Assembly (NCBI GenBank): GCA_000146465.1 | Contig: CP001951.1 | Length of the DNA stretch: 64,000 bases | Direction: 5' to 3' (one strand) | In this document: positions 31,452-60,394 of the stretch, piece after piece | Position numbering within the stretch: the stretch's first letter is position 1 | Layout of the letters: the number at the start of each line of letters is the position of its first letter | Notes under the pieces: model-generated | What the model was told of the DNA's origin: nothing | The model's input: the letters and a program-made list of their open reading frames with translations, nothing else | The model's database searches: none | Made by a program: the position numbers and the translations under genes

Positions 31452-31587
31452 CTGGGGTGCATGTTCCAAGAGACCTTTTATCTAAGTATATGGTCGGGTA
31501 CCTTCTGGATTGACTGTTCCTTTACACTCTCTTCTGACACTTCTCTAAAGACGGGCTTCAGATTTCTATGCAGTAAAATACAAGTCC

Positions 31588-32358
31588 ATGGACTTTGAGA
31601 GTAAAGACAGGAGATATGGAGATCTTCCCGGGAGACAGACAAAGATTTTCATGAAAAATGAAATTTCCGACGGAGACAGTGCAGCAATAGAAAACACAAG
31701 CAGACAAATTCCCCACAGTGAGTTCGAGGCTTTTCTTAAAGATTATTTTGCAGAAGCAGACGAGAAGAAGTTTAATCAGACTGTTTTAAGGACGCCTTTA
31801 GACGAGGAATGGCTTGAGGAGATAGTTGGGAAGGAGACTGAATGTGCAAGAGAGGCCATGATAAAGGGTCTTATGGGATGTCTTATAGACGAAGGAGATA
31901 TTCTTAATGGCTTTTCCGAAGTTCTGGAGGAGGAAGGATCTGCAGAAATGGAAGTGGAAGACTGTATTGAGGTGGAGAAGACTCTAAGATCCTTTTCCCT
32001 AGAGAATATAAGGGATCTGGTTAGACTGTACAAAGAACAAGTTTCGATTAACAACAAGAGGAAGGACCTTCTTCGCAAGAAGTTAAAAGAGAGATTGGCC
32101 TACTATGGATACTGGATGGTACTGAGGGCCATTGACTCGGAAATTGAGGATTTGGTTTCCCGAGAGAAGGGAAGAAAGAAGGGAATTGAGGAGGAAAGAG
32201 CTCGGGAGGTTCTAGAAAAACGTTCCGAATTCATGGAATTATTCAAGGATTTCTCGGTACTTGAGGAGGACTATAGAAACTATGAGGATCTATTTGATCC
32301 CAAGGAGAATGTGGATGCAAGTAGGCATGGAGTGTTTCCATACGACTACTTTTCATAA
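31588..32358 (+). CDS. Hypothetical acidic protein
   Basis: A 256-aa ORF with an ATG start and Glu-rich sequence. No confident family. Confidence 0.4.
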   Translation: MDFESKDRRYGDLPGRQTKIFMKNEISDGDSAAIENTSRQIPHSEFEAFLKDYFAEADEKKFNQTVLRTPLDEEWLEEIVGKETECAREAMIKGLMGCLIDEGDILNGFSEVLEEEGSAEMEVEDCIEVEKTLRSFSLENIRDLVRLYKEQVSINNKRKDLLRKKLKERLAYYGYWMVLRAIDSEIEDLVSREKGRKKGIEEERAREVLEKRSEFMELFKDFSVLEEDYRNYEDLFDPKENVDASRHGVFPYDYFS

Positions 32359-32408
32359 AGAGGGAAGGCTATTAGGAAGGAAAAGATAATGGGCCGGGAG
32401 CCCCTGGA

Positions 32409-33041
32409 ATGAGTCTTGAGGAAAAGCTAATGAAAAGGCTAGAGGGAGGGATGTTTCGGATACTGAACGACAAGATGTACCATGGAAAGGGCTTAAAGAA
32501 GAGGGACTTGAAGCTATATCATGAGCTGTATGATCAGCAGGTTAAGCGATGGCCAGTTAATCCTCTTGATGTTATTATTGAGAAGATAAAGAAGAAAGGA
32601 AATGGCATGGCGATAGCAGACATAGGATGTGGAGATGCTCGGATTTCCAGGGAGTTTGAAAATGTAATGTCCTTGGATCTGAATCCTTCTCGAAAGGATA
32701 TAATCCGCTGCGATATGAGACAAAGGATCCCTTTAGATGACAAGAGTGTGGACATTGCAGTTTGCTGTTTAAGTATGATGGCTGAGAACATTTCGGTTCC
32801 TATGAAGGAGGTAAACCGGATACTAAGGGAGTCGGGGTACTGGTATATAGCAGAAGTCAAGAGCAGGATACCTAATATAAAGCATCTGGAGAAGAAGTTT
32901 GAGAGCTTTGGGTTTGAAGTTGAGCATACCGACATGTCAAATGCACAGTTTATTCTTTTCGTTTTGAAAAAGAATCTAGATAAGAATCCGAAGAAACTTC
33001 CACCGGTCAGATTGATTCCATGGGTTTACAAGAAGAGATGA
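32409..33041 (+). CDS. RRP8: rRNA-processing protein 8 (Rrp8)-like SAM-dependent methyltransferase
   Basis: A Rossmann methyltransferase with motif I IADIGCGDARIS, an acidic strand SLDLNPS, motif IV region SVDIAVCCLSMMAEN, and YWYIAEVKSRIPNIKHLEKKFESFGFEV resembling the Rrp8 C-terminus. Confidence 0.65.
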   Translation: MSLEEKLMKRLEGGMFRILNDKMYHGKGLKKRDLKLYHELYDQQVKRWPVNPLDVIIEKIKKKGNGMAIADIGCGDARISREFENVMSLDLNPSRKDIIRCDMRQRIPLDDKSVDIAVCCLSMMAENISVPMKEVNRILRESGYWYIAEVKSRIPNIKHLEKKFESFGFEVEHTDMSNAQFILFVLKKNLDKNPKKLPPVRLIPWVYKKR

Positions 33042-33078
33042 AGGTGGAAAGAGGAAACTTGATGTTTACTACCTTTGG

Positions 33079-33495
33079 CTACTTGGCGGAAACTCCGAAG
33101 AAGAAGACAAAAGCTGTTGAATACACCGAGTAGTATATGAAGAACAGGATTGATACAACGATGTCTGGCGTGGTCATAGTGAAGCACTCTCTGCAGTTCT
33201 TGTATCCCATCCTCATTACAAACACATTATTCATGATGATGAAGAATGCCAGGAGGTTCATTATCTTTGCAATAACATGGAGAGCTTAAATTAAAGATAG
33301 CACTTACCATTTATGATTCTAAAATACAGCTTTCCTTTCTTTGCCATTGGTTTTACAAGAGACAGAGCTGTGGAATATGTTATTATAACTATGAGAACCT
33401 GGCTTCCGTAGAAATATCTTGGTGCTAGGGATGCAGTGAGGATCAGTCCGAGGAGCGATGAAATCTTTGAATTAGTAGGGCAAGGCACTTACCAT
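33079..33495 (-). CDS. Small multi-pass membrane protein of about 121 aa, encoded by three exons with two tiny spliceosomal introns
   Basis: Exon 1 is the ATG alone (33495..33493). Intron 1 is 33492..33465 (gtaagtgccttgccctactaattcaaag, 28 nt). Exon 2 is 33464..33308. Intron 2 is 33307..33285 (gtaagtgctatctttaatttaag, 23 nt). Exon 3 is 33284..33079. The splice joins two track ORFs in frame (33291..33488 and 33079..33261). The product is M-ISSLLGLILTASLAPRYFYGSQVLIVIITYSTALSLVKPMAKKGKLYFRIIN-A-LHVIAKIMNLLAFFIIMNNVFVMRMGYKNCRECFTMTTPDIVVSILFFIYYSVYSTAFVFFFGVSAK. Confidence 0.45.
33285..33307 (-). other. Spliceosomal intron of 23 nt (phase 1)
   Basis: Minus strand: AAATG|gtaagtgctatctTTAATttaag|CTCTCC. 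Removing it keeps the upstream exon in frame with the downstream 60-aa ORF. 23 nt is at the minimum of Encephalitozoon intron lengths. Confidence 0.4.
33465..33492 (-). other. Spliceosomal intron of 28 nt immediately after the ATG
   Basis: Minus strand: ATG|gtaagtgccttgccCTACTAATtcaaag|ATTTCA. It has a GTAAGT 5' splice site, a CTAAT branch-like element 3 nt from the 3' AAG, and is almost the same length and sequence as the RPL27A intron. Confidence 0.5.
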
Positions 33496-33645
33496 TTCCA
33501 TCTTGTCTTTGAACATCATTGTGGTCTGGGGTTGGGTGTTTAGATGGTTTGTTGATGCCAAGAAGGGAGGCCATGGTAGCTTGATGGGCTAGAGACAGCA
33601 AGGGTTCCCTTGGACACATTGGGAATGGATGGCTAGAACGGAGAA

Positions 33646-33668
33646 GTAAAAAATATTTCGGGATCCCT
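33646..33668 (+). promoter_or_regulatory. AAAAAATATTT box plus CCC motif upstream of the NDC80 ATG
   Basis: The sequence is gtAAAAAATATTTcgggatCCCtATG. Confidence 0.3.
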
Positions 33669-35303
33669 ATGACTCGGAGATTCACCATGACGCCGAACTC
33701 CAGGAATTCTATTAAGACACCTATTTCAGGGGCGAAGGTTGCTCTATTTCCAAGACACTCTGTAGCGGCTGAGGAGATCAAGAGGAGGGATATGAGGCTG
33801 GTGAGAGAGAAAGGATACAAGCAGCAGTGTGTTGACACTATTTTAGGGTTTTTGATGGAAAATGGATACGATGGACAGATATCACAGAAGATCATGCATA
33901 ACCCGTCTTCGAAGGACTTCCAAAGTATCTTCAAGTTCCTGTATGGATTTGTGGACGACTTTGTGTTCTCCTCAAGGTTTGAGGACGAAGTTGTGAATGT
34001 GATGAAGAATTTGAGGTATCCATATTGCGGGGAGATTACGAAAAGCCAGCTGAGTGCAATAACACCCCACACATGGCCTGTAATTCTAAGCATGTGCAGC
34101 TGGCTAGTGGAGCTGATAAGGCATGGAGCAACTCTTCTCGAGCAGGAGGAAGAGAAGAGTGTTGAGAGCTGTTTCTTTGAGTATGTGTGTGATGGGTATA
34201 TGAGATTTATGGAAGGAGATGAGGATGATGCGGCTCTTGAGGAGGAATTTGAGAGGAAGGTCACAGAGATATACACGGGGATATTTAAGGAGATCGATCG
34301 AAAGAAGGAGGAACTTTCCCGGATTGAGGAGATGATAGGGAAGTCTCGAAGGATGTCTGAAAGCCTTGGAGAGCTGGAGAGAAAGAAGAGAGAGTTGACA
34401 GATGATCTGAACATGCTGATAGCTTCTGAGAAACAGCTTGAGGGGAAGAAGAAGAAGTATCTAGGGGCTATTGAGCGTCTTTGCGAAGATATTGCAAGGG
34501 TTGAGGAGGAGATTGAAAGCCAAAGGGTACAAGAGGAAGGATTGAGGGTTCAAATAACGAAACAGAAGATCAATCCTGAAGACGTAAGGGAGATGAATAC
34601 CGAGAAGATGGAGTTATTTAAGGAGCTAGAAAGAATGAAGCCGGAGAAGGAGGGGCTTATGAGAGAGGTAGGAGAACAAGAAAGAGAAGCACAGGAAAAG
34701 GTTGAAGAGGTTGAGAAGTTGTTTTTTGATCTGAAGGGTCTTCGAGATGAGATTTCATTGAGGATAGTGAAGGACACAAAGGGAGGGGTCCAAGTAGTGA
34801 ATGAGGTAAGCAACGAGGTGTTTGACAACGGAATAGCTTCGGTGATTGTACGTCTTGAAGAGGAGCTAAATGGAAGAAGTGATGTTCTTGTGGCAGGGGA
34901 GATGAACAAAGGTATGCTTGAGGAAGCAAGGGCAGAGAAGGAAGGAATGTCTAGCGAACTAAGCAACAGACTCAAATATTGCAGTGATAAGCTTTTGATG
35001 GCAGGAAAGTTGTATCTGGAGAAGAAGGAGATATCTGAGAACGAGCAAAGGAAGAGCAAGACCGAAATGGAGCTGCTGGAGAACGAACTTCTGAAGCTCA
35101 ATCTGGAGTCCAACACGTCTCTGCTGATGAGTGAGCAGAAGCTACAAAAAGCCAAGATACTTCTTGACAGAACACTCAACACCATAAACTATGAGAGAGA
35201 GGAGATTAGCAAGATGGTGTTTAACTTCTACAACACAGTTGTTGATGTTCATACATTGATCCAGTCACAGGTTGGAGACCTGAGGACCTTACTGAACAGG
35301 TGA
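33669..35303 (+). CDS. NDC80: Kinetochore protein NDC80/HEC1
   Basis: The N-terminal calponin-homology region has the NDC80 pattern (QQCVDTILGFLMENGYD...SSKDFQSIFKFLYGFVDDFVF...LRYPYCGEITKSQLSAITPHTWPVILSMCSWLVELI). It is followed by a long coiled coil. Confidence 0.7.
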   Translation: MTRRFTMTPNSRNSIKTPISGAKVALFPRHSVAAEEIKRRDMRLVREKGYKQQCVDTILGFLMENGYDGQISQKIMHNPSSKDFQSIFKFLYGFVDDFVFSSRFEDEVVNVMKNLRYPYCGEITKSQLSAITPHTWPVILSMCSWLVELIRHGATLLEQEEEKSVESCFFEYVCDGYMRFMEGDEDDAALEEEFERKVTEIYTGIFKEIDRKKEELSRIEEMIGKSRRMSESLGELERKKRELTDDLNMLIASEKQLEGKKKKYLGAIERLCEDIARVEEEIESQRVQEEGLRVQITKQKINPEDVREMNTEKMELFKELERMKPEKEGLMREVGEQEREAQEKVEEVEKLFFDLKGLRDEISLRIVKDTKGGVQVVNEVSNEVFDNGIASVIVRLEEELNGRSDVLVAGEMNKGMLEEARAEKEGMSSELSNRLKYCSDKLLMAGKLYLEKKEISENEQRKSKTEMELLENELLKLNLESNTSLLMSEQKLQKAKILLDRTLNTINYEREEISKMVFNFYNTVVDVHTLIQSQVGDLRTLLNR

Positions 35304-52687: not shown

Positions 52688-53959
52688 TCAGCCTTTAATC
52701 CTCGATTCTACAAAGTCCTTGAACCAGATGGACTCCTCAAATCCCTCGCAGAATCTCTTTACTATCTCTCCAGCTCCCTTCTTGTCAAGCATGTTCAGGA
52801 GATAAAAAGATCTATACACCTCAAATGCGCTGTCTCCTGACGGAAGGCAAAATCTGTTTTTTCCGAAGCTCTTGAAATCCTCGAGAAACTTCTTATGGAC
52901 TGGAGAACCTCGGATCCTGTCGTTGAGTATCACACAGAGGAGCTTCATCACAAGGCCGTGGTTTGGAGGCTGCACCTCAGAACACTTTGAAAGAACTTCA
53001 AACGAGGTCTCGAAGTCTCCACTGCGGAACGAAGACAATCCAAACTCCCCTAGAACTTCTTGCTCAATCTTCCCCTCTCCTATTGTGTCCTTGATCGACT
53101 CATAGTACTTCCTTGACTCCCCATATCCTTGGGTTCGATCAATGTAGAGAAGCCTGAACAACCTGTCCTCTGTTTTTGCCGGCCTTCCCAGCTTGAAAAA
53201 CTCAAACTGTAGAACTCTTCTTTCGACAAGCTTCGGGTCTATTTCCAAAAGCCTTTTAAGAAGGCCATTGTAAGTACTTATCTTCGGAGAGTCAAGAATC
53301 TCATACAGAGTCTCAAGATAGAAGTCTATGTTTTCCAGAAGCGTGTTTTTTTCTCTATCCCCAAAGCAATCAAGCAACTCGTTGATCGTCTTCATGATCT
53401 CCACCCCATCCTTGGACTTCATGTGGATAGACAGGAGAGTCCTTAAGGCTTTGGCCTTCATTTCTTTATCCTTTGCACTATCCTTGAACTCTTCTAACTC
53501 TTTTCTTCTCTCCTCTGTGTCTTTGATGACCAGTATCTTGCTTAGATCCCTGGACAGCCTCTCCTCGTCTCTCCGATCCTCTTGTTGCCCATTCTCATCT
53601 TCTTTGGGCTCGTGATGGGCCAGCAGCTCGTCAATTGTCTTCTTGTGGGTCTTAGTGTATACTCTCGGCGACTCCAAGAACTTCTTCAAAAACGGAGGAA
53701 GGCCCCTGCTCAAATACCCCTCCATCTTTCGGATGTCGACAAGTATCTTCTTTAGTTGCTTGTCAAAAATCTTCTGGTTTTCTTCCTCCTCCAGCTCCAT
53801 CACTCTGCACTGGAGATCATGGAGTCTCTTCTCCTTCTTCCCCTGCTTCTCAGATGCCTCATAAGTCTTTTCTTTTATCTTTACTCGGCTACTTTCCTCT
53901 CTCTCCTCGTCAATCGACTCAAAAAATCTAGACATCAGGGGATGAATGGGCTTCTTCAA
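52688..53959 (-). CDS. Hypothetical protein
   Basis: A 423-aa ORF starting 6 nt downstream of the FAP7 gene. Acidic N-terminal third, helical remainder. No confident family. Confidence 0.4.
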   Translation of the reverse strand: MKKPIHPLMSRFFESIDEEREESSRVKIKEKTYEASEKQGKKEKRLHDLQCRVMELEEEENQKIFDKQLKKILVDIRKMEGYLSRGLPPFLKKFLESPRVYTKTHKKTIDELLAHHEPKEDENGQQEDRRDEERLSRDLSKILVIKDTEERRKELEEFKDSAKDKEMKAKALRTLLSIHMKSKDGVEIMKTINELLDCFGDREKNTLLENIDFYLETLYEILDSPKISTYNGLLKRLLEIDPKLVERRVLQFEFFKLGRPAKTEDRLFRLLYIDRTQGYGESRKYYESIKDTIGEGKIEQEVLGEFGLSSFRSGDFETSFEVLSKCSEVQPPNHGLVMKLLCVILNDRIRGSPVHKKFLEDFKSFGKNRFCLPSGDSAFEVYRSFYLLNMLDKKGAGEIVKRFCEGFEESIWFKDFVESRIKG

Positions 53960-54001
53960 ATTCTCTCCAGAACACTGTATTTATTACACATCTTTCAAGC
54001 A

Positions 54002-54907
54002 TCATAGATATCGCCAGTCCGAGTCCACAATCCCCTCCTTCATCCAGAACTCCAGCGACCTACTGTTCTTGGTCAGAAGGTCGTTCAGTTGAGTAAACGA
54101 TACCACCAGATCTCTTCCATTTATCTGTACATCGGCATGAGAAAGCGGATGGAACAGCTCTGCACACACCTCCGAGCTTAAACGCATCTTGTCCTTGAGT
54201 TGGGGGAAAAACTCCATGGCATCCTCACACTTTTCTTCATCTTCGCACCAATAAGAAGATGTAATGATTCTCCCTCCCTCAGGAATGCATCCCGAAAATT
54301 CTTCGAAGAGCTCCAGATCTTTCTCAATGATGTCAAAGCACTGTAGGTTCTTATGGAGTCTATCCCTAAGCGCCTTGAGGATCTTCTTCTTGGGAGCTTG
54401 TTGAAGGACCAGAGATCTCACAAAGTATTCTTTATACCTTTCTAGAAGATCAGGCATCAGCTCGAGAAAAAAGCTTAGGACATCAGATGTCTTCAGCCCC
54501 GGATACCATGAGAAGAGCTCGTCCTCTATCACTTCCATACTTTCTACCTGGTCCAAGATACACTCAAAGAGGTCGTCTCTTTTGGTCAGCTCCTCCTTGA
54601 TTCTTTCAAGCTTCTTTATTATCTTTTTGTTGATATTCCGAAATGATTCGGAAACTGCAAACAGTATATTTCTGGTGCTCATGTTTCTTATCTTCAAGCT
54701 AAGCATCCCAGGCCTTGCGCTCTTCTTCGTGGCTTCTGTGCTATTCATTGCAACAAGATTTGGAATGTAGCTGATCCTTTTACTTTTCAAGCTTTCGTTG
54801 CATGCATCTTCCATCGATTCCCTGTCAAATTTCTTCATCCTCCTTACAATTTCCCGATCTCTTTCAATCTCCTCCATCCCAAACAAAGAATTTATAGGAT
54901 AGATCAA
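54002..54907 (-). CDS. Hypothetical protein
   Basis: A 301-aa ORF. No confident family. Confidence 0.4.
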   Translation of the reverse strand: MIYPINSLFGMEEIERDREIVRRMKKFDRESMEDACNESLKSKRISYIPNLVAMNSTEATKKSARPGMLSLKIRNMSTRNILFAVSESFRNINKKIIKKLERIKEELTKRDDLFECILDQVESMEVIEDELFSWYPGLKTSDVLSFFLELMPDLLERYKEYFVRSLVLQQAPKKKILKALRDRLHKNLQCFDIIEKDLELFEEFSGCIPEGGRIITSSYWCEDEEKCEDAMEFFPQLKDKMRLSSEVCAELFHPLSHADVQINGRDLVVSFTQLNDLLTKNSRSLEFWMKEGIVDSDWRYL

Positions 54908-55008
54908 ACTCGTTATTTTTACTTGTTTTAGATGCAGAGACAGTTATCAAAAGGCTACAAGACATGGAAAGAAAGAGCCCGTAGTAACAACTATCAAAAG
55001 AAGACAAT

Positions 55009-55480
55009 TTAATAAGTAATTATCCACTTCCCCCCAACTCTTGTGATCTCTTCTTTTGCTGATGGCGTGAAATACCTGGCTTTGACAACAATCGGCCTTT
55101 CCAAAGGCAGCTTTCCTCCAATAACAATGTGATATCCAAACTCCCTGACATCGATCACAGGAACCTTCTCAACGTTATCCAGGAACTCGTATCTTTGCTC
55201 CTTTGGGATCATCCCCCACAGCCTTGCAGAGCTGATTGGGCGGGCATAGTTCGAGTTCTCCTTCCTGTGGTAAACCCTCATTCCTCTCTTTCCATGGTAG
55301 TCCGGATGGAATCTTGTGAAAAGAGTCTTCATGTGGCTGAATCCTCCTGCCAGCCCTCGGCCTCCAGAGTGTTTTCTATGCTTTCCTACACGTCCATGTC
55401 CGTGCGATACATGCCCTCGCATCTTTCTAGTCTTCTTAACCTTTTCTGCCTTCAAATTAGCTCAGATAGCCACTTACCAT
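55009..55480 (-). CDS. RPL27A: 60S ribosomal protein L27a (uL15) with a 28-nt intron immediately after the start codon
   Basis: Exon 1 is the ATG at 55480..55478. The intron is 55477..55450 (gtaagtggctatctgagctaatttgaag). Exon 2 is 55449..55009. The spliced product [37 protein letters not shown]... matches eukaryotic L27a ([30 protein letters not shown]). The track ORF 55009..55455 starts on TTG inside the 3' splice site. Confidence 0.8.
55450..55477 (-). other. Spliceosomal intron of 28 nt at the start codon of RPL27A
   Basis: Minus strand: AAAATTTTATCCCTGAAATG|gtaagtggctatctgagCTAATttgaag|GCAGAAAAG. It has a GTAAGT 5' site and a CTAAT element 3 nt before the 3' AAG. The upstream AAAATTTT box plus CCC motif is also present. 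Confidence 0.75.
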
Positions 55481-55635
55481 TTCAGGGATAAAATTTTTAC
55501 CTCGACAAATACAAGCAATCCAATTTTCTTCAATGGCCATCCATTTTCCACTCAAGCCGTTGTACAGGCGCCTGATGCAGGAATGTGAAACTGTCGTTTG
55601 AGCAAGGTTCAAAAGAAGTGCAAGCACACTCTGAA

Positions 55636-57009
55636 ATGCACTCCACACACAAGAAGATCAAGGTCAGCATAAGGCTAAGGCCCTCTACAGGGAACAGAGA
55701 GATATGGAAGACCTCTGAAGACGGTTTGTGGCATATCCGTGGGGAGAGGAGAGTGAAATACAGCGGGTTCCAAAGCATCCTGTCGAACATGACAAACGAA
55801 GAGGTTTACAAGCTGTGTGTGCAGGAGGAGGTTTGGAAGTTTTTGAACGAAGAGAACTGCACGGTGTTTGCATATGGACAGACAGGCTCTGGAAAGACAT
55901 ACACAATGCTGGGAGGAGATGAGGAGGGGATTATAAAGCTGGCAATAAGAGATGTTTTGAAGAAGAGGTCTGTGGGGATATCGTATCTAGAAATTTACAA
56001 CGAGAAGCTCTTTGATCTTTCGAACAACAACGAGGTTCAGATGTTCAGTGTTGGAAACAAGAATGTGATCTCGAACTTGTGGGTCGAGCATGTGGATAAG
56101 TGGGAAGATGTTGTGCCTTTTATTGAGAAGTGTGAGAAGAACAGGAGGTTTGGAACTACGGAGTTCAACACAAAGAGTAGTAGGTCACATACTGTGGTTC
56201 AAGTGACATACAGCAGCAACAACCGAGTCCGGACTTTGAATATGATAGACCTTGCAGGGAGCGAAAGAGCAAGCCGATCGAATGACAGGAGGAAGGAAGG
56301 GTCCTTTATTAACAGGAGCCTTCTTGCACTCTGCACGGTTGTCAACAACATAGGAAATGGGAAGTATCTGGGGTTTCGGAACTCGAAACTGACAAGGGTG
56401 CTTCAGCCGTCATTGGACGGACTTACGAATCTGATTGCAATCTGCACGTTGTCACCTTATGAAGATTGTGTTGAAGAGTCTGTAAGTACATTGAAGTTTG
56501 CGGCAAGGCTGTGCAATCTCGAGCTGAAGACGGAAGAGATGCAGATATCAAGCGATGGGGATGGAAGATGTGGAGGAGATGGATTGGAAGGAAGTTCCAG
56601 ATGCGAGGTGAAACACAGATGCTGCAGAAAGTTTCATCCTGAAGTTAGTAAAGAAACAAGCGATGTTCTGGAGAAGACAGAGTCCATGACCTTTGAGAAG
56701 TACTTTGAAGGATACGGCTTTTCGGAAGCTCCTGGGCTGGAAGAGCATAGAGAGCATGACAAGGTGTGTAGTGAGAAGGATTCTGTAGCAGGGATACTCC
56801 GGACCTTTGGAAGGGTGATTATGGAGAATCTGGAGTGGAAGGTAAAGCTTATGGAGGAGCTGAACATAATTAACAACGATAGAATACATTTGCTAGAGAG
56901 AATGGTAGGAGAGTTACTTGGTAAGAACCCATCAAGAAGAATGAATGAGATCTTCATACTCGAGAAGTACAGGTTCAACCTTCGTAGGAAGATGGTTGGA
57001 AGAAAATGA
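55636..57009 (+). CDS. Kinesin-like motor protein
   Basis: The track ORF starts on GTG at 55585; the first ATG (MHSTHKKIKVSIRLRPS) is at 55636. P-loop AYGQTGSGKTYTM, switch I SSRSH, switch II LIDLAGSE, then a short coiled-coil tail. Confidence 0.8.
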   Translation: MHSTHKKIKVSIRLRPSTGNREIWKTSEDGLWHIRGERRVKYSGFQSILSNMTNEEVYKLCVQEEVWKFLNEENCTVFAYGQTGSGKTYTMLGGDEEGIIKLAIRDVLKKRSVGISYLEIYNEKLFDLSNNNEVQMFSVGNKNVISNLWVEHVDKWEDVVPFIEKCEKNRRFGTTEFNTKSSRSHTVVQVTYSSNNRVRTLNMIDLAGSERASRSNDRRKEGSFINRSLLALCTVVNNIGNGKYLGFRNSKLTRVLQPSLDGLTNLIAICTLSPYEDCVEESVSTLKFAARLCNLELKTEEMQISSDGDGRCGGDGLEGSSRCEVKHRCCRKFHPEVSKETSDVLEKTESMTFEKYFEGYGFSEAPGLEEHREHDKVCSEKDSVAGILRTFGRVIMENLEWKVKLMEELNIINNDRIHLLERMVGELLGKNPSRRMNEIFILEKYRFNLRRKMVGRK

Positions 57010-60204: not shown

Positions 60205-60394
60205 AGTGGTTAGATGGCAAGTCGACCGCTCTGGGCAGTAAGCGCGGGTCTAGAGATCTCCTTGTGGGTAGTTGGGGAGTCTGTAGGGACTCTGCACCTA
60301 CCATTAAAGCGGAGGGGAACGCATGAGGGCGGAAACGCAGCAATGAGTACCTCCTGCAAGGCAGAGTCTCCAGCCTTCCGCGCCAGTCCTTTTT
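60205..60394 (+). ncRNA. Candidate signal recognition particle RNA (reduced, S-domain-like), probably a Pol III transcript
   Basis: It lies in a 375-bp GC-rich gap between genes that has no ORF. catGAGGGCGGAAACGCAGCAatgagtaCCTC (60321..~60355) closely parallels the SRP RNA helix 8 apex (human GAGGUCGGAAACGGAGCAGG: a GNRA tetraloop followed by AC-G.AGCA). Flanking complementarity gggactctg/cagagtctcc and gcggagggg/ccttccgc is consistent with a long helix-5-like stem. A T5 run at 60390..60394 serves as a terminator, and a TTTAAAT box sits about 25 nt upstream of the proposed 5' end. The ends are approximate. Confidence 0.4.

What the first reader, a model, noticed from the sequence alone, without database searches (positions are those of the whole stretch)
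55450..55480. RPL27A has a 28-nt intron directly after its ATG, and a shared extended splice consensus across three introns
On the minus strand the sequence AAAATTTTATCCCTGAAATG|gtaagtggctatctgagCTAATttgaag|GCAGAAAAGGTTAAG yields [14 protein letters not shown]..., the canonical L27a N-terminus. The track ORF instead starts on TTG within the 3' splice site. All three introns found in this window share AAATG|GTAAGTG at the 5' end, a C/T-TAAT branch-like pentamer, and AAG| at the 3' end, with lengths of 28, 28 and 23 nt. Two of the three sit immediately after the initiator codon. This is the reduced spliceosome signature described for Encephalitozoon-type microsporidia, and it can be used as a search pattern for further introns.
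Basis: partly seen in the sequence, partly recalled or inferred. Interest (0 to 1): 0.55.

Follow-up and report, generated by a model that had tools for sequence, protein, structure and literature searches.

The report
Known tiny intron in microsporidian RPL27A
The 28-base interruption right after the start codon of the ribosomal protein L27a gene is a genuine miniature spliceosomal intron of the parasite Encephalitozoon intestinalis. It is already in the public annotation and belongs to an intron class described since 2001, so the finding is correct but ordinary.

Summary
On the minus strand, ATG (55480-55478) is followed by the 28-nt sequence GTAAGTGGCTATCTGAGCTAATTTGAAG (55477-55450). Removing it gives a 147-aa protein identical over its full length to the NCBI entry [quoted passage not shown]. 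The public gene span (472 nt = 444 + 28) already contains this intron.

The intron sits at the same site in E. cuniculi, E. hellem, E. romaleae, an unnamed relative and Vairimorpha bombi. It is absent in Ordospora.

The other two introns (28 and 23 nt) lie in the annotated gene Eint_100755 and are conserved as far as Ordospora. The shared consensus occurs 3 times in the window and 0 times in 300 shuffles. A regular expression published for this intron class hits exactly these three sites.

Two corrections. First, only the L27A intron follows the initiator. Intron 1 of Eint_100755 follows codon 9.

The consensus, the position after the ATG and the enrichment in ribosomal protein genes are all published (Katinka 2001, Lee 2010, Grisdale 2013). 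Verdict: real, correctly interpreted, already known, low interest.

The parts
55485..55498 (-). AAAAATTTT...CCC promoter-like signal upstream of RPL27A (AAATTT-like box 55498-55490, CCC 55487-55485)
   Evidence: Read and conserved in all relatives. It matches the E. cuniculi L27A entry 'AAAATTTTTATCCCTGAA (intron)' in Additional file 3 of PMC2803860. Its role as a transcription signal comes from that paper and was not tested here.
55478..55480 (-). RPL27A coding part of exon 1: the initiator ATG only
   Evidence: The annotated gene span in the identical public record starts here.
55450..55477 (-). RPL27A intron, 28 nt: GTAAGTGG / variable spacer / TGAGCTAATTTGAAG. The putative branch A is 7 nt from the 3' end.
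   Evidence: It is conserved at the same site in E. cuniculi, E. hellem, E. romaleae and Logan DRR353006, and in a shorter AT-rich form in V. bombi. If retained, the reading frame stops after MVSGYLS.
55009..55449 (-). RPL27A exon 2 (codons 2-147 plus the stop codon)
   Evidence: Pfam Ribosomal_L27A scores E = 3e-10. It is 100% identical to ADM12419.1.
33493..33519 (-). Eint_100755 exon 1 (9 codons, MMFKDKMEM)
   Evidence: Coding conservation and the upstream CCC motif are shown.
33465..33492 (-). Eint_100755 intron 1, 28 nt: GTAAGTGCCTTGCCCTACTAATTCAAAG
   Evidence: It is conserved in E. hellem (25 nt), E. romaleae (28), E. cuniculi (28) and O. colligata (29).
33308..33464 (-). Eint_100755 exon 2
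   Evidence: The annotated span of 441 nt equals 390 coding + 51 intronic nt.
33285..33307 (-). Eint_100755 intron 2, 23 nt: GTAAGTGCTATCTTTAATTTAAG
   Evidence: It is 23 nt in all four Encephalitozoon species and 24 nt in O. colligata. Exon-only ORF fragments in other assemblies break at this point.
33079..33284 (-). Eint_100755 exon 3 (including the stop codon)

Best explanation
The window is Encephalitozoon intestinalis chromosomal DNA.

The 28 nt at 55477-55450 (minus strand) are a canonical GT-AG spliceosomal intron of the miniature Encephalitozoon class. It splits the uL15/L27a gene directly after its initiator ATG.

Inferred mechanism, from the literature:
- Transcription starts a few nucleotides upstream of the ATG, next to the CCC signal, so exon 1 is probably only about 5-10 nt long.
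- The 5' splice site G|GUAAGU is the perfect complement of the ACUUACC 5' end reported for the Encephalitozoon U1 snRNA.
- The CUAAUUU element supplies the branch adenosine 6-7 nt from the 3' AG.

Shown here: removing the intron joins ATG to GCA GAA AAG..., which gives the conserved N-terminus [10 protein letters not shown]. Without splicing, the ATG frame stops after 7 codons.

The two introns of Eint_100755 use the same signals.

In E. cuniculi such short introns are removed from only a minority of transcripts. Splicing here is therefore probably inefficient, though it is required to make the protein.
For: Identity and prior annotation:
- The spliced product is 100% identical over 147/147 aa to NCBI ADM12419.1, L27A of E. 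intestinalis ATCC 50506.
- The public gene span is 472 nt for a 147-aa product, so the intron is already annotated.
- Window 53509-56980 is identical to CP075167.1.

Conservation:
- The same site carries an intron with the same signals in E. cuniculi (28 nt), E. hellem (27), E. romaleae (27), an unnamed relative (31) and V. bombi (23).
- 22 of 28 intron columns are invariant among four Encephalitozoon species, against 47% of synonymous third positions. All variation falls in a 5-nt spacer and one position near the 3' end.

Need for splicing:
- Retention gives a stop codon in every species.
- The TTG used by the ORF caller is TTA in E. hellem and E. romaleae. Met11 is Leu in E. cuniculi and E. 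hellem. Neither alternative start is conserved.

Statistics:
- The full consensus occurs 3 times against 0 in 300 shuffles.
- The published expression GTA[AG]GT..TAATT.{0,4}AG hits exactly these three sites in 128 kb of both strands.

Literature:
- 37 introns of 22-76 nt, and all annotated ones confirmed as spliced by RNA-seq (PMC3629993).
- Branch consensus CTAAYTT (PMC2483917).
- U1 with ACUUACC (PMC5499648).
- The E. cuniculi and N. ceranae L27A genes are listed with '(intron)' (PMC2803860 Additional file 3).
- E. intestinalis and E. cuniculi share the same intron complement (PMC4355639).
Against: - No transcript data for E. intestinalis were available here, so splicing at this locus is inferred from annotation, conservation and the E. 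cuniculi RNA-seq statement.
- Short introns in E. cuniculi are spliced at low levels, under 20% on average (PMC6349667). 81% of junctions are spliced below 50% (PMC3629993).
- A 5' RACE clone of a different ribosomal protein gene (L7A, ECU02_0750i) was unspliced (PMC2803860).
- The transcription start, and hence the length of exon 1, was not measured for this gene.
- The branch adenosine is assigned by consensus and has not been mapped.
Confidence: 0.93

Rival explanations
1. There is no splicing. The gene is a single ORF that starts at the TTG inside the supposed 3' splice site (as the ORF track has it) or at the internal Met11 (as the E. romaleae record AFN83903.1 is annotated, 137 aa).
For: The mechanical ORF list gives 55009..55455 with a TTG start. 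The E. romaleae public protein starts at MRGH. An unspliced RACE clone was reported for another ribosomal protein gene (PMC2803860).
Against: The TTG is TTA in E. hellem and E. romaleae. Met11 is Leu in E. cuniculi and E. hellem. Residues 2-10 (xxxVKKTRK) are conserved as coding sequence and belong to the conserved uL15 N-terminus. The ATG + GTAAGTGG + TGAGCTAATTT blocks are invariant while the spacer varies. E. romaleae DNA carries the same ATG and intron upstream of its annotated start. RNA-seq confirmed splicing of all annotated E. cuniculi introns.
Confidence: 0.03
2. The three matches are chance occurrences of a short motif in AT-rich sequence.
For: GTAAGT alone is at the chance level (17 against 17.7). 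A looser pattern gives 88 hits, nearly all inside long ORFs.
Against: The full consensus occurs 3 times against 0 in 300 shuffles. Each site restores a conserved reading frame. Each is conserved at the orthologous position in 4-6 other genomes. All three are in the public annotation.
Confidence: 0.01
3. The intron is real, but its main role is regulatory. Most transcripts keep it and are therefore untranslatable, so the start-codon-adjacent intron throttles or autoregulates uL15 output, as some yeast ribosomal protein introns do.
For: Splicing levels of short E. cuniculi introns are low, and 11 of 37 junctions change between time points (PMC3629993). An autoregulatory role for microsporidian ribosomal protein introns has been suggested (PMC3486916). 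The intron sequence is more conserved than synonymous sites (PMC4355639).
Against: The conserved positions are exactly the generic splice signals (5' splice site, branch point to AG), with no gene-specific extra element. Grisdale et al. found no strong compensatory role of splicing for ribosomal protein genes. Ordospora dispenses with this intron.
Confidence: 0.1

Closest known systems
Orthologous RPL27A intron of Encephalitozoon cuniculi GB-M1 (protein NP_586214.1/CAD25818.1, chromosome X record AL590449.1)
   Same: Same gene and same neighbours (kinesin upstream). Same position directly after the ATG, same length (28 nt) and the same GTAAGTGG...TGAGCTAATTTGAAG blocks. Same AAAATTTTTATCCCTGAA upstream signal.
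   Different: Five substitutions in the central spacer. Codons 2-4 differ (TDR against AEK). Nothing differs in kind.
Encephalitozoon short spliceosomal intron class (Katinka 2001; Lee et al. 2010; Grisdale et al. 2013)
   Same: GT-AG boundaries, a GTAAGT 5' site, a CTAAYTT branch motif a few nucleotides from the AG, length 22-76 nt, enrichment in ribosomal protein genes, extreme 5' position, and a stop codon or frameshift if retained.
   Different: None for RPL27A. Intron 1 of Eint_100755 has CTAATTC rather than CTAAYTT.
Yeast ribosomal protein gene introns (e.g. autoregulated RPL30, RPS14, RPS9)
   Same: [quoted passage not shown]
   Different: Yeast introns are roughly 50-1000 nt, use TACTAAC and are spliced efficiently (about 80%). 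The ones here are 23-28 nt, use CTAATTT 6-7 nt from the AG, and are probably spliced poorly.
Long microsporidian introns (poly-A binding protein gene ECU09_1470 / Eint_091220, and S23)
   Same: Same spliceosome and the same 5' site and core branch motif.
   Different: Those are about 76 nt, have a hyper-extended branch point and a conserved internal stem-loop, and are spliced at about 80%. The introns in this window belong to the short, weakly spliced class.

Membership tests
Encephalitozoon-type short spliceosomal intron | GT...AG boundaries with a GTAAGT 5' splice site (complement of U1 ACUUACC when the exonic -1 G is included) | tested here: met
   All three introns read G|GTAAGTG...AAG. 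The U1 motif is taken from PMC5499648.
Encephalitozoon-type short spliceosomal intron | Branch motif TAAYTT / CTAAYTT close to the 3' AG | tested here: met
   RPL27A has CTAATTT, Eint_100755 intron 2 has TTAATTT, and intron 1 has CTAATTC (one position off). The putative branch A lies 6-7 nt from the intron end. The consensus is from PMC2483917.
Encephalitozoon-type short spliceosomal intron | Length within 22-76 nt | tested here: met
   28, 28 and 23 nt. The range is from PMC3629993.
Encephalitozoon-type short spliceosomal intron | Retention gives a premature stop or a frameshift, and removal restores a conserved protein | tested here: met
   One search covers all three introns. One search covers the L27A orthologues, including the 27-nt versions, which carry an in-frame TGA. 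The spliced products equal the annotated proteins.
Encephalitozoon-type short spliceosomal intron | Same position in orthologous genes of related species | tested here: met
   RPL27A: four Encephalitozoon species, Logan DRR353006 and V. bombi. Eint_100755: four Encephalitozoon species and O. colligata.
Encephalitozoon-type short spliceosomal intron | Spliced transcripts observed | not testable with these tools
   No RNA data are available here. [quoted passage not shown] The E. cuniculi L27A intron is annotated.
Start-codon-adjacent ribosomal protein intron (Katinka 2001 subset) | [quoted passage not shown] | tested here: met
   Met for RPL27A. Tested and not met for Eint_100755 intron 1 (after codon 9) and intron 2 (inside codon 62), a gene that does not encode a ribosomal protein.
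uL15 / L27a ribosomal protein (host gene) | Pfam Ribosomal_L27A domain and the conserved N-terminal KKTRKxRGHVSHGxGR | tested here: met
   PF00828 scores E = 3e-10, above its cut-off. There are 274 homologues at E <= 1e-20. N-termini are compared.

The most novel reading that the evidence does not exclude
The RPL27A intron is more than a leftover. With a first exon of perhaps 5-10 nt, the 5' splice site lies essentially at the cap. Splicing would then be deliberately inefficient, and the intron would act as a conserved gate on uL15 synthesis, because unspliced mRNA yields only a 7-residue peptide. The evidence does not exclude this reading, but nothing here supports it specifically.
Probability: 0.08. 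Interest if true: 0.4.

Novelty: already known. Interest (0 to 1): 0.08.

Why it matters
It matters little as a discovery. The intron, its consensus and its position are in the public E. intestinalis annotation and in several papers.

It is useful as a check on the scan: a reader without tools correctly recognised the organism type and three real 23-28 nt introns from raw sequence.

It also has practical value for annotation. Prokaryote-style ORF callers mis-start or fragment these genes. Examples seen here are the TTG start in the window's ORF list, the 137-aa E. romaleae record, and the read-through or split ORFs in Logan/ENA assemblies.

Tried and rejected
The Fig. [quoted passage not shown] The text and primer table show that rib is ECU02_0750i, L7A on chromosome II. 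The neighbours of the window gene do not match that locus either. I rejected it as evidence about this intron.

(2) A search for further introns with a loose pattern gave 88 hits. All but the three known sites lie inside long ORFs or antisense to genes. The one intergenic candidate (60168-60111, minus strand) lies in the same intergenic gap as an SRP RNA gene.

(3) The function of Eint_100755 could not be assigned. It has no Pfam family. The AlphaFold model has a mean pLDDT of 57, too low for a fold search, which I therefore did not run.

(4) Lee et al. 2010 and Pombert et al. 2012 could not be read because they are not held. Their content is cited only through papers that quote them.

(5) The tRNA scan found none in the window.

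Full report
OBSERVATION

The minus strand reads AAAATTTTATCCCTGAA ATG GTAAGTGGCTATCTGAGCTAATTTGAAG GCAGAAAAGGTTAAG. The ATG is at 55480-55478. The 28-nt GT...AG segment is at 55477-55450. The downstream frame runs to a stop codon ending at 55009.

Joining the ATG to 55449 gives a 147-aa protein, [21 protein letters not shown].... Read without splicing, the ATG frame stops after MVSGYLS.

Exact ATGGTAAGT occurs three times in the window, all on the minus strand: 55480, 33495 and 33310. The two others are GTAAGTGCCTTGCCCTACTAATTCAAAG (33492-33465, 28 nt) and GTAAGTGCTATCTTTAATTTAAG (33307-33285, 23 nt).

CHANCE

GTAAGT alone is not enriched (17 observed, 17.7 expected). ATGGTAAGTG occurs 3 times against 0.07 expected. 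The full pattern ATGGTAAGTG..YTAAT..AAG occurs 3 times against 0 in 300 dinucleotide-preserving shuffles.

WHAT IT IS

The spliced protein is 100% identical over its full length to NCBI ADM12419.1, '60S ribosomal protein L27A [Encephalitozoon intestinalis ATCC 50506]'. It carries the Pfam Ribosomal_L27A domain.

The public gene span for that protein is 472 nt, which is 444 coding nt plus 28. The intron is therefore already annotated. Window 53509-56980 is base-for-base identical to CP075167.1 of the telomere-to-telomere E. intestinalis assembly. Introns in that assembly were added by hand (PMC10158259).

The other two introns lie in the annotated gene Eint_100755. Its product has 129 aa, is uncharacterised and has no Pfam family. 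Its 441-nt span equals 390 coding nt plus 51 intronic nt.

CONSERVATION OF THE RPL27A INTRON

The orthologous loci carry an intron at the same point:
- E. cuniculi: 28 nt.
- E. hellem: 27 nt.
- E. romaleae: 27 nt.

The blocks GTAAGTGG and TGAGCTAATTT and the final AAG are invariant. A 5-6 nt central spacer varies. In all, 22 of 28 columns are invariant among the four species, against 47% of synonymous third positions in the same gene. This agrees with the report that Encephalitozoon introns are more conserved than synonymous sites (PMC4355639).

An unnamed relative (Logan DRR353006) has the same arrangement with a 31-nt intron, although its neighbouring genes differ.

Vairimorpha bombi has ATG|GTAAGTTGAAATTATAATTTTAG| at the same site. 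N. ceranae L27A is listed with an intron in Additional file 3 of PMC2803860.

Ordospora pajunii and O. colligata lack the intron.

ALTERNATIVE STARTS ARE NOT CONSERVED

The TTG is TTA in E. hellem and E. romaleae. Met11 is Leu in E. cuniculi and E. hellem. Every orthologue hits a stop codon if the intron is retained, including the 27-nt versions.

THE 'TWO OF THREE AFTER THE INITIATOR' CLAIM

For Eint_100755 the annotation starts 27 nt upstream (MMFKDKMEM|intron). Three lines of evidence support that start.
- The nine codons are conserved as coding sequence: M[ML][FV]KDK[ML]EM, with synonymous changes.
- O. colligata has ...GAA ATC|GTAAGT, with no ATG next to the intron.
- A CCC-like motif lies 4-10 nt upstream of the first ATG in all five species. 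That motif marks transcription and translation starts in these genomes (PMC2803860).

Only the RPL27A intron therefore abuts the initiator.

MECHANISM

Shown here:
- The sequence signals.
- Frame restoration on removal of the intron.
- Conservation across species.

Taken from the literature:
- The Encephalitozoon U1 snRNA carries ACUUACC, the exact complement of G|GUAAGU (PMC5499648).
- The E. cuniculi branch consensus is CTAAYTT (PMC2483917).
- 5' UTRs are under 7 nt (PMC2803860).

From these I infer a first exon of only about 5-10 nt. I also infer a branch adenosine 16-20 nt from the 5' site and 6-7 nt from the AG.

In E. cuniculi all annotated introns are spliced, but mostly at low levels. 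81% of junctions are below 50%, and short introns average under 20%. Inefficient but necessary splicing is the most likely state here too.

COMPARISON WITH WHAT IS KNOWN

[quoted passage not shown] Run on this window, it returns exactly the three introns and nothing else.

It finds 3 of 3 if the gap is counted from the A of ATG.

The RPL27A intron meets every testable defining feature of the class. Transcript evidence could not be tested here.

A TRAP AVOIDED

PMC2803860 reports an unspliced RACE product. Its Fig. 2 legend names the gene 'L27A'. The gene is in fact ECU02_0750i, which is L7A, and the neighbours of the window gene differ from that locus. The result does not bear on this intron. 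It does illustrate the low splicing levels.

VERDICT

The feature is already known and annotated. Interest is low.

Noticed in passing
window 60240-60384 (+): A signal recognition particle RNA gene (Rfam RF00017, 70.7 bits, E = 9e-16) lies in the 376-bp gap between two plus-strand genes. It matches only model positions 101-249, consistent with the reduced Encephalitozoon SRP RNA, which has been described as lacking a canonical Alu domain (PMC5499648).
   Followed up: partly
L009 1444-1473 (E. romaleae CP003529.1): The public E. romaleae L27A protein (AFN83903.1) is 137 aa and starts at Met11. The DNA upstream carries the same ATG plus a 27-nt intron (GTAAGTGGCGTCTGAGCTAATTTAAAG), so that record appears to have missed the intron.
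   Followed up: yes
L017 601-644 (Vairimorpha bombi JAWUGJ010000002.1): The annotation implies a 41-nt intron, giving MTRKLRGH. A 23-nt intron (604-626) ending at the first AG after TATAATTTT gives MIKQVKKTRKLRGH, the conserved uL15 N-terminus. The annotated 3' splice site is probably wrong.
   Followed up: partly
L016 601-640 (Ordospora pajunii); proteins P0002, P0154: Ordospora L27A has no intron. It has exactly six extra bases, GTGAGG (Val-Arg), directly after the ATG, at the site where relatives carry the intron. This fits loss by a 22-nt internal deletion of a 28-nt intron that left GTAAG+G in frame, rather than precise cDNA-mediated loss. This is inference only.
   Followed up: partly
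window 33079-33519 (-); proteins P0139-P0152: Eint_100755 belongs to an unnamed family of small, predicted helical, hydrophobic proteins with the shared motif NVFVM..G.KNC..C. A profile search finds 14 relatives. Several are contiguous 110-135 aa ORFs from unnamed assemblies, and one is labelled a contaminant in a louse genome. Others are exon-2-only or exon-3-only ORFs broken at intron 2. There is no Pfam family, and the AlphaFold model is poor (pLDDT 57).
   Followed up: partly
window 31579-35019 and 53509-56980: Both stretches are identical to CP075167.1. They are 21,930 bp apart in the window but 23,724 bp apart by the record coordinates returned, a difference of 1,794 bp. Either the window comes from another E. 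intestinalis assembly or there is an indel between the two loci. This was not resolved.
   Followed up: no
window 33443-34414 (-): A 323-aa ATG-started ORF runs antisense to the Ndc80 gene (33669-35303, +) and straight through intron 1 of Eint_100755. It has no support as a gene and is an example of the long spurious antisense ORFs in this genome.
   Followed up: no
L018 (Logan DRR353006 contig, 9.8 kb): An unnamed Encephalitozoon-like organism has an L27A 79% identical to the window's. It has the same promoter-like signal and start-adjacent intron (31 nt) but different neighbours (a MYST acetyltransferase and a CPSF73-like gene). The ORF caller read through the intron from a GTG, giving MSESEVNFKAEH...
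   Followed up: partly
literature: PMC2803860 Fig. 2 legend: The legend calls the 'rib' gene L27A, but the text and primer table identify it as ECU02_0750i, which is L7A. Anyone using that paper as evidence about L27A splicing would be misled.
   Followed up: yes
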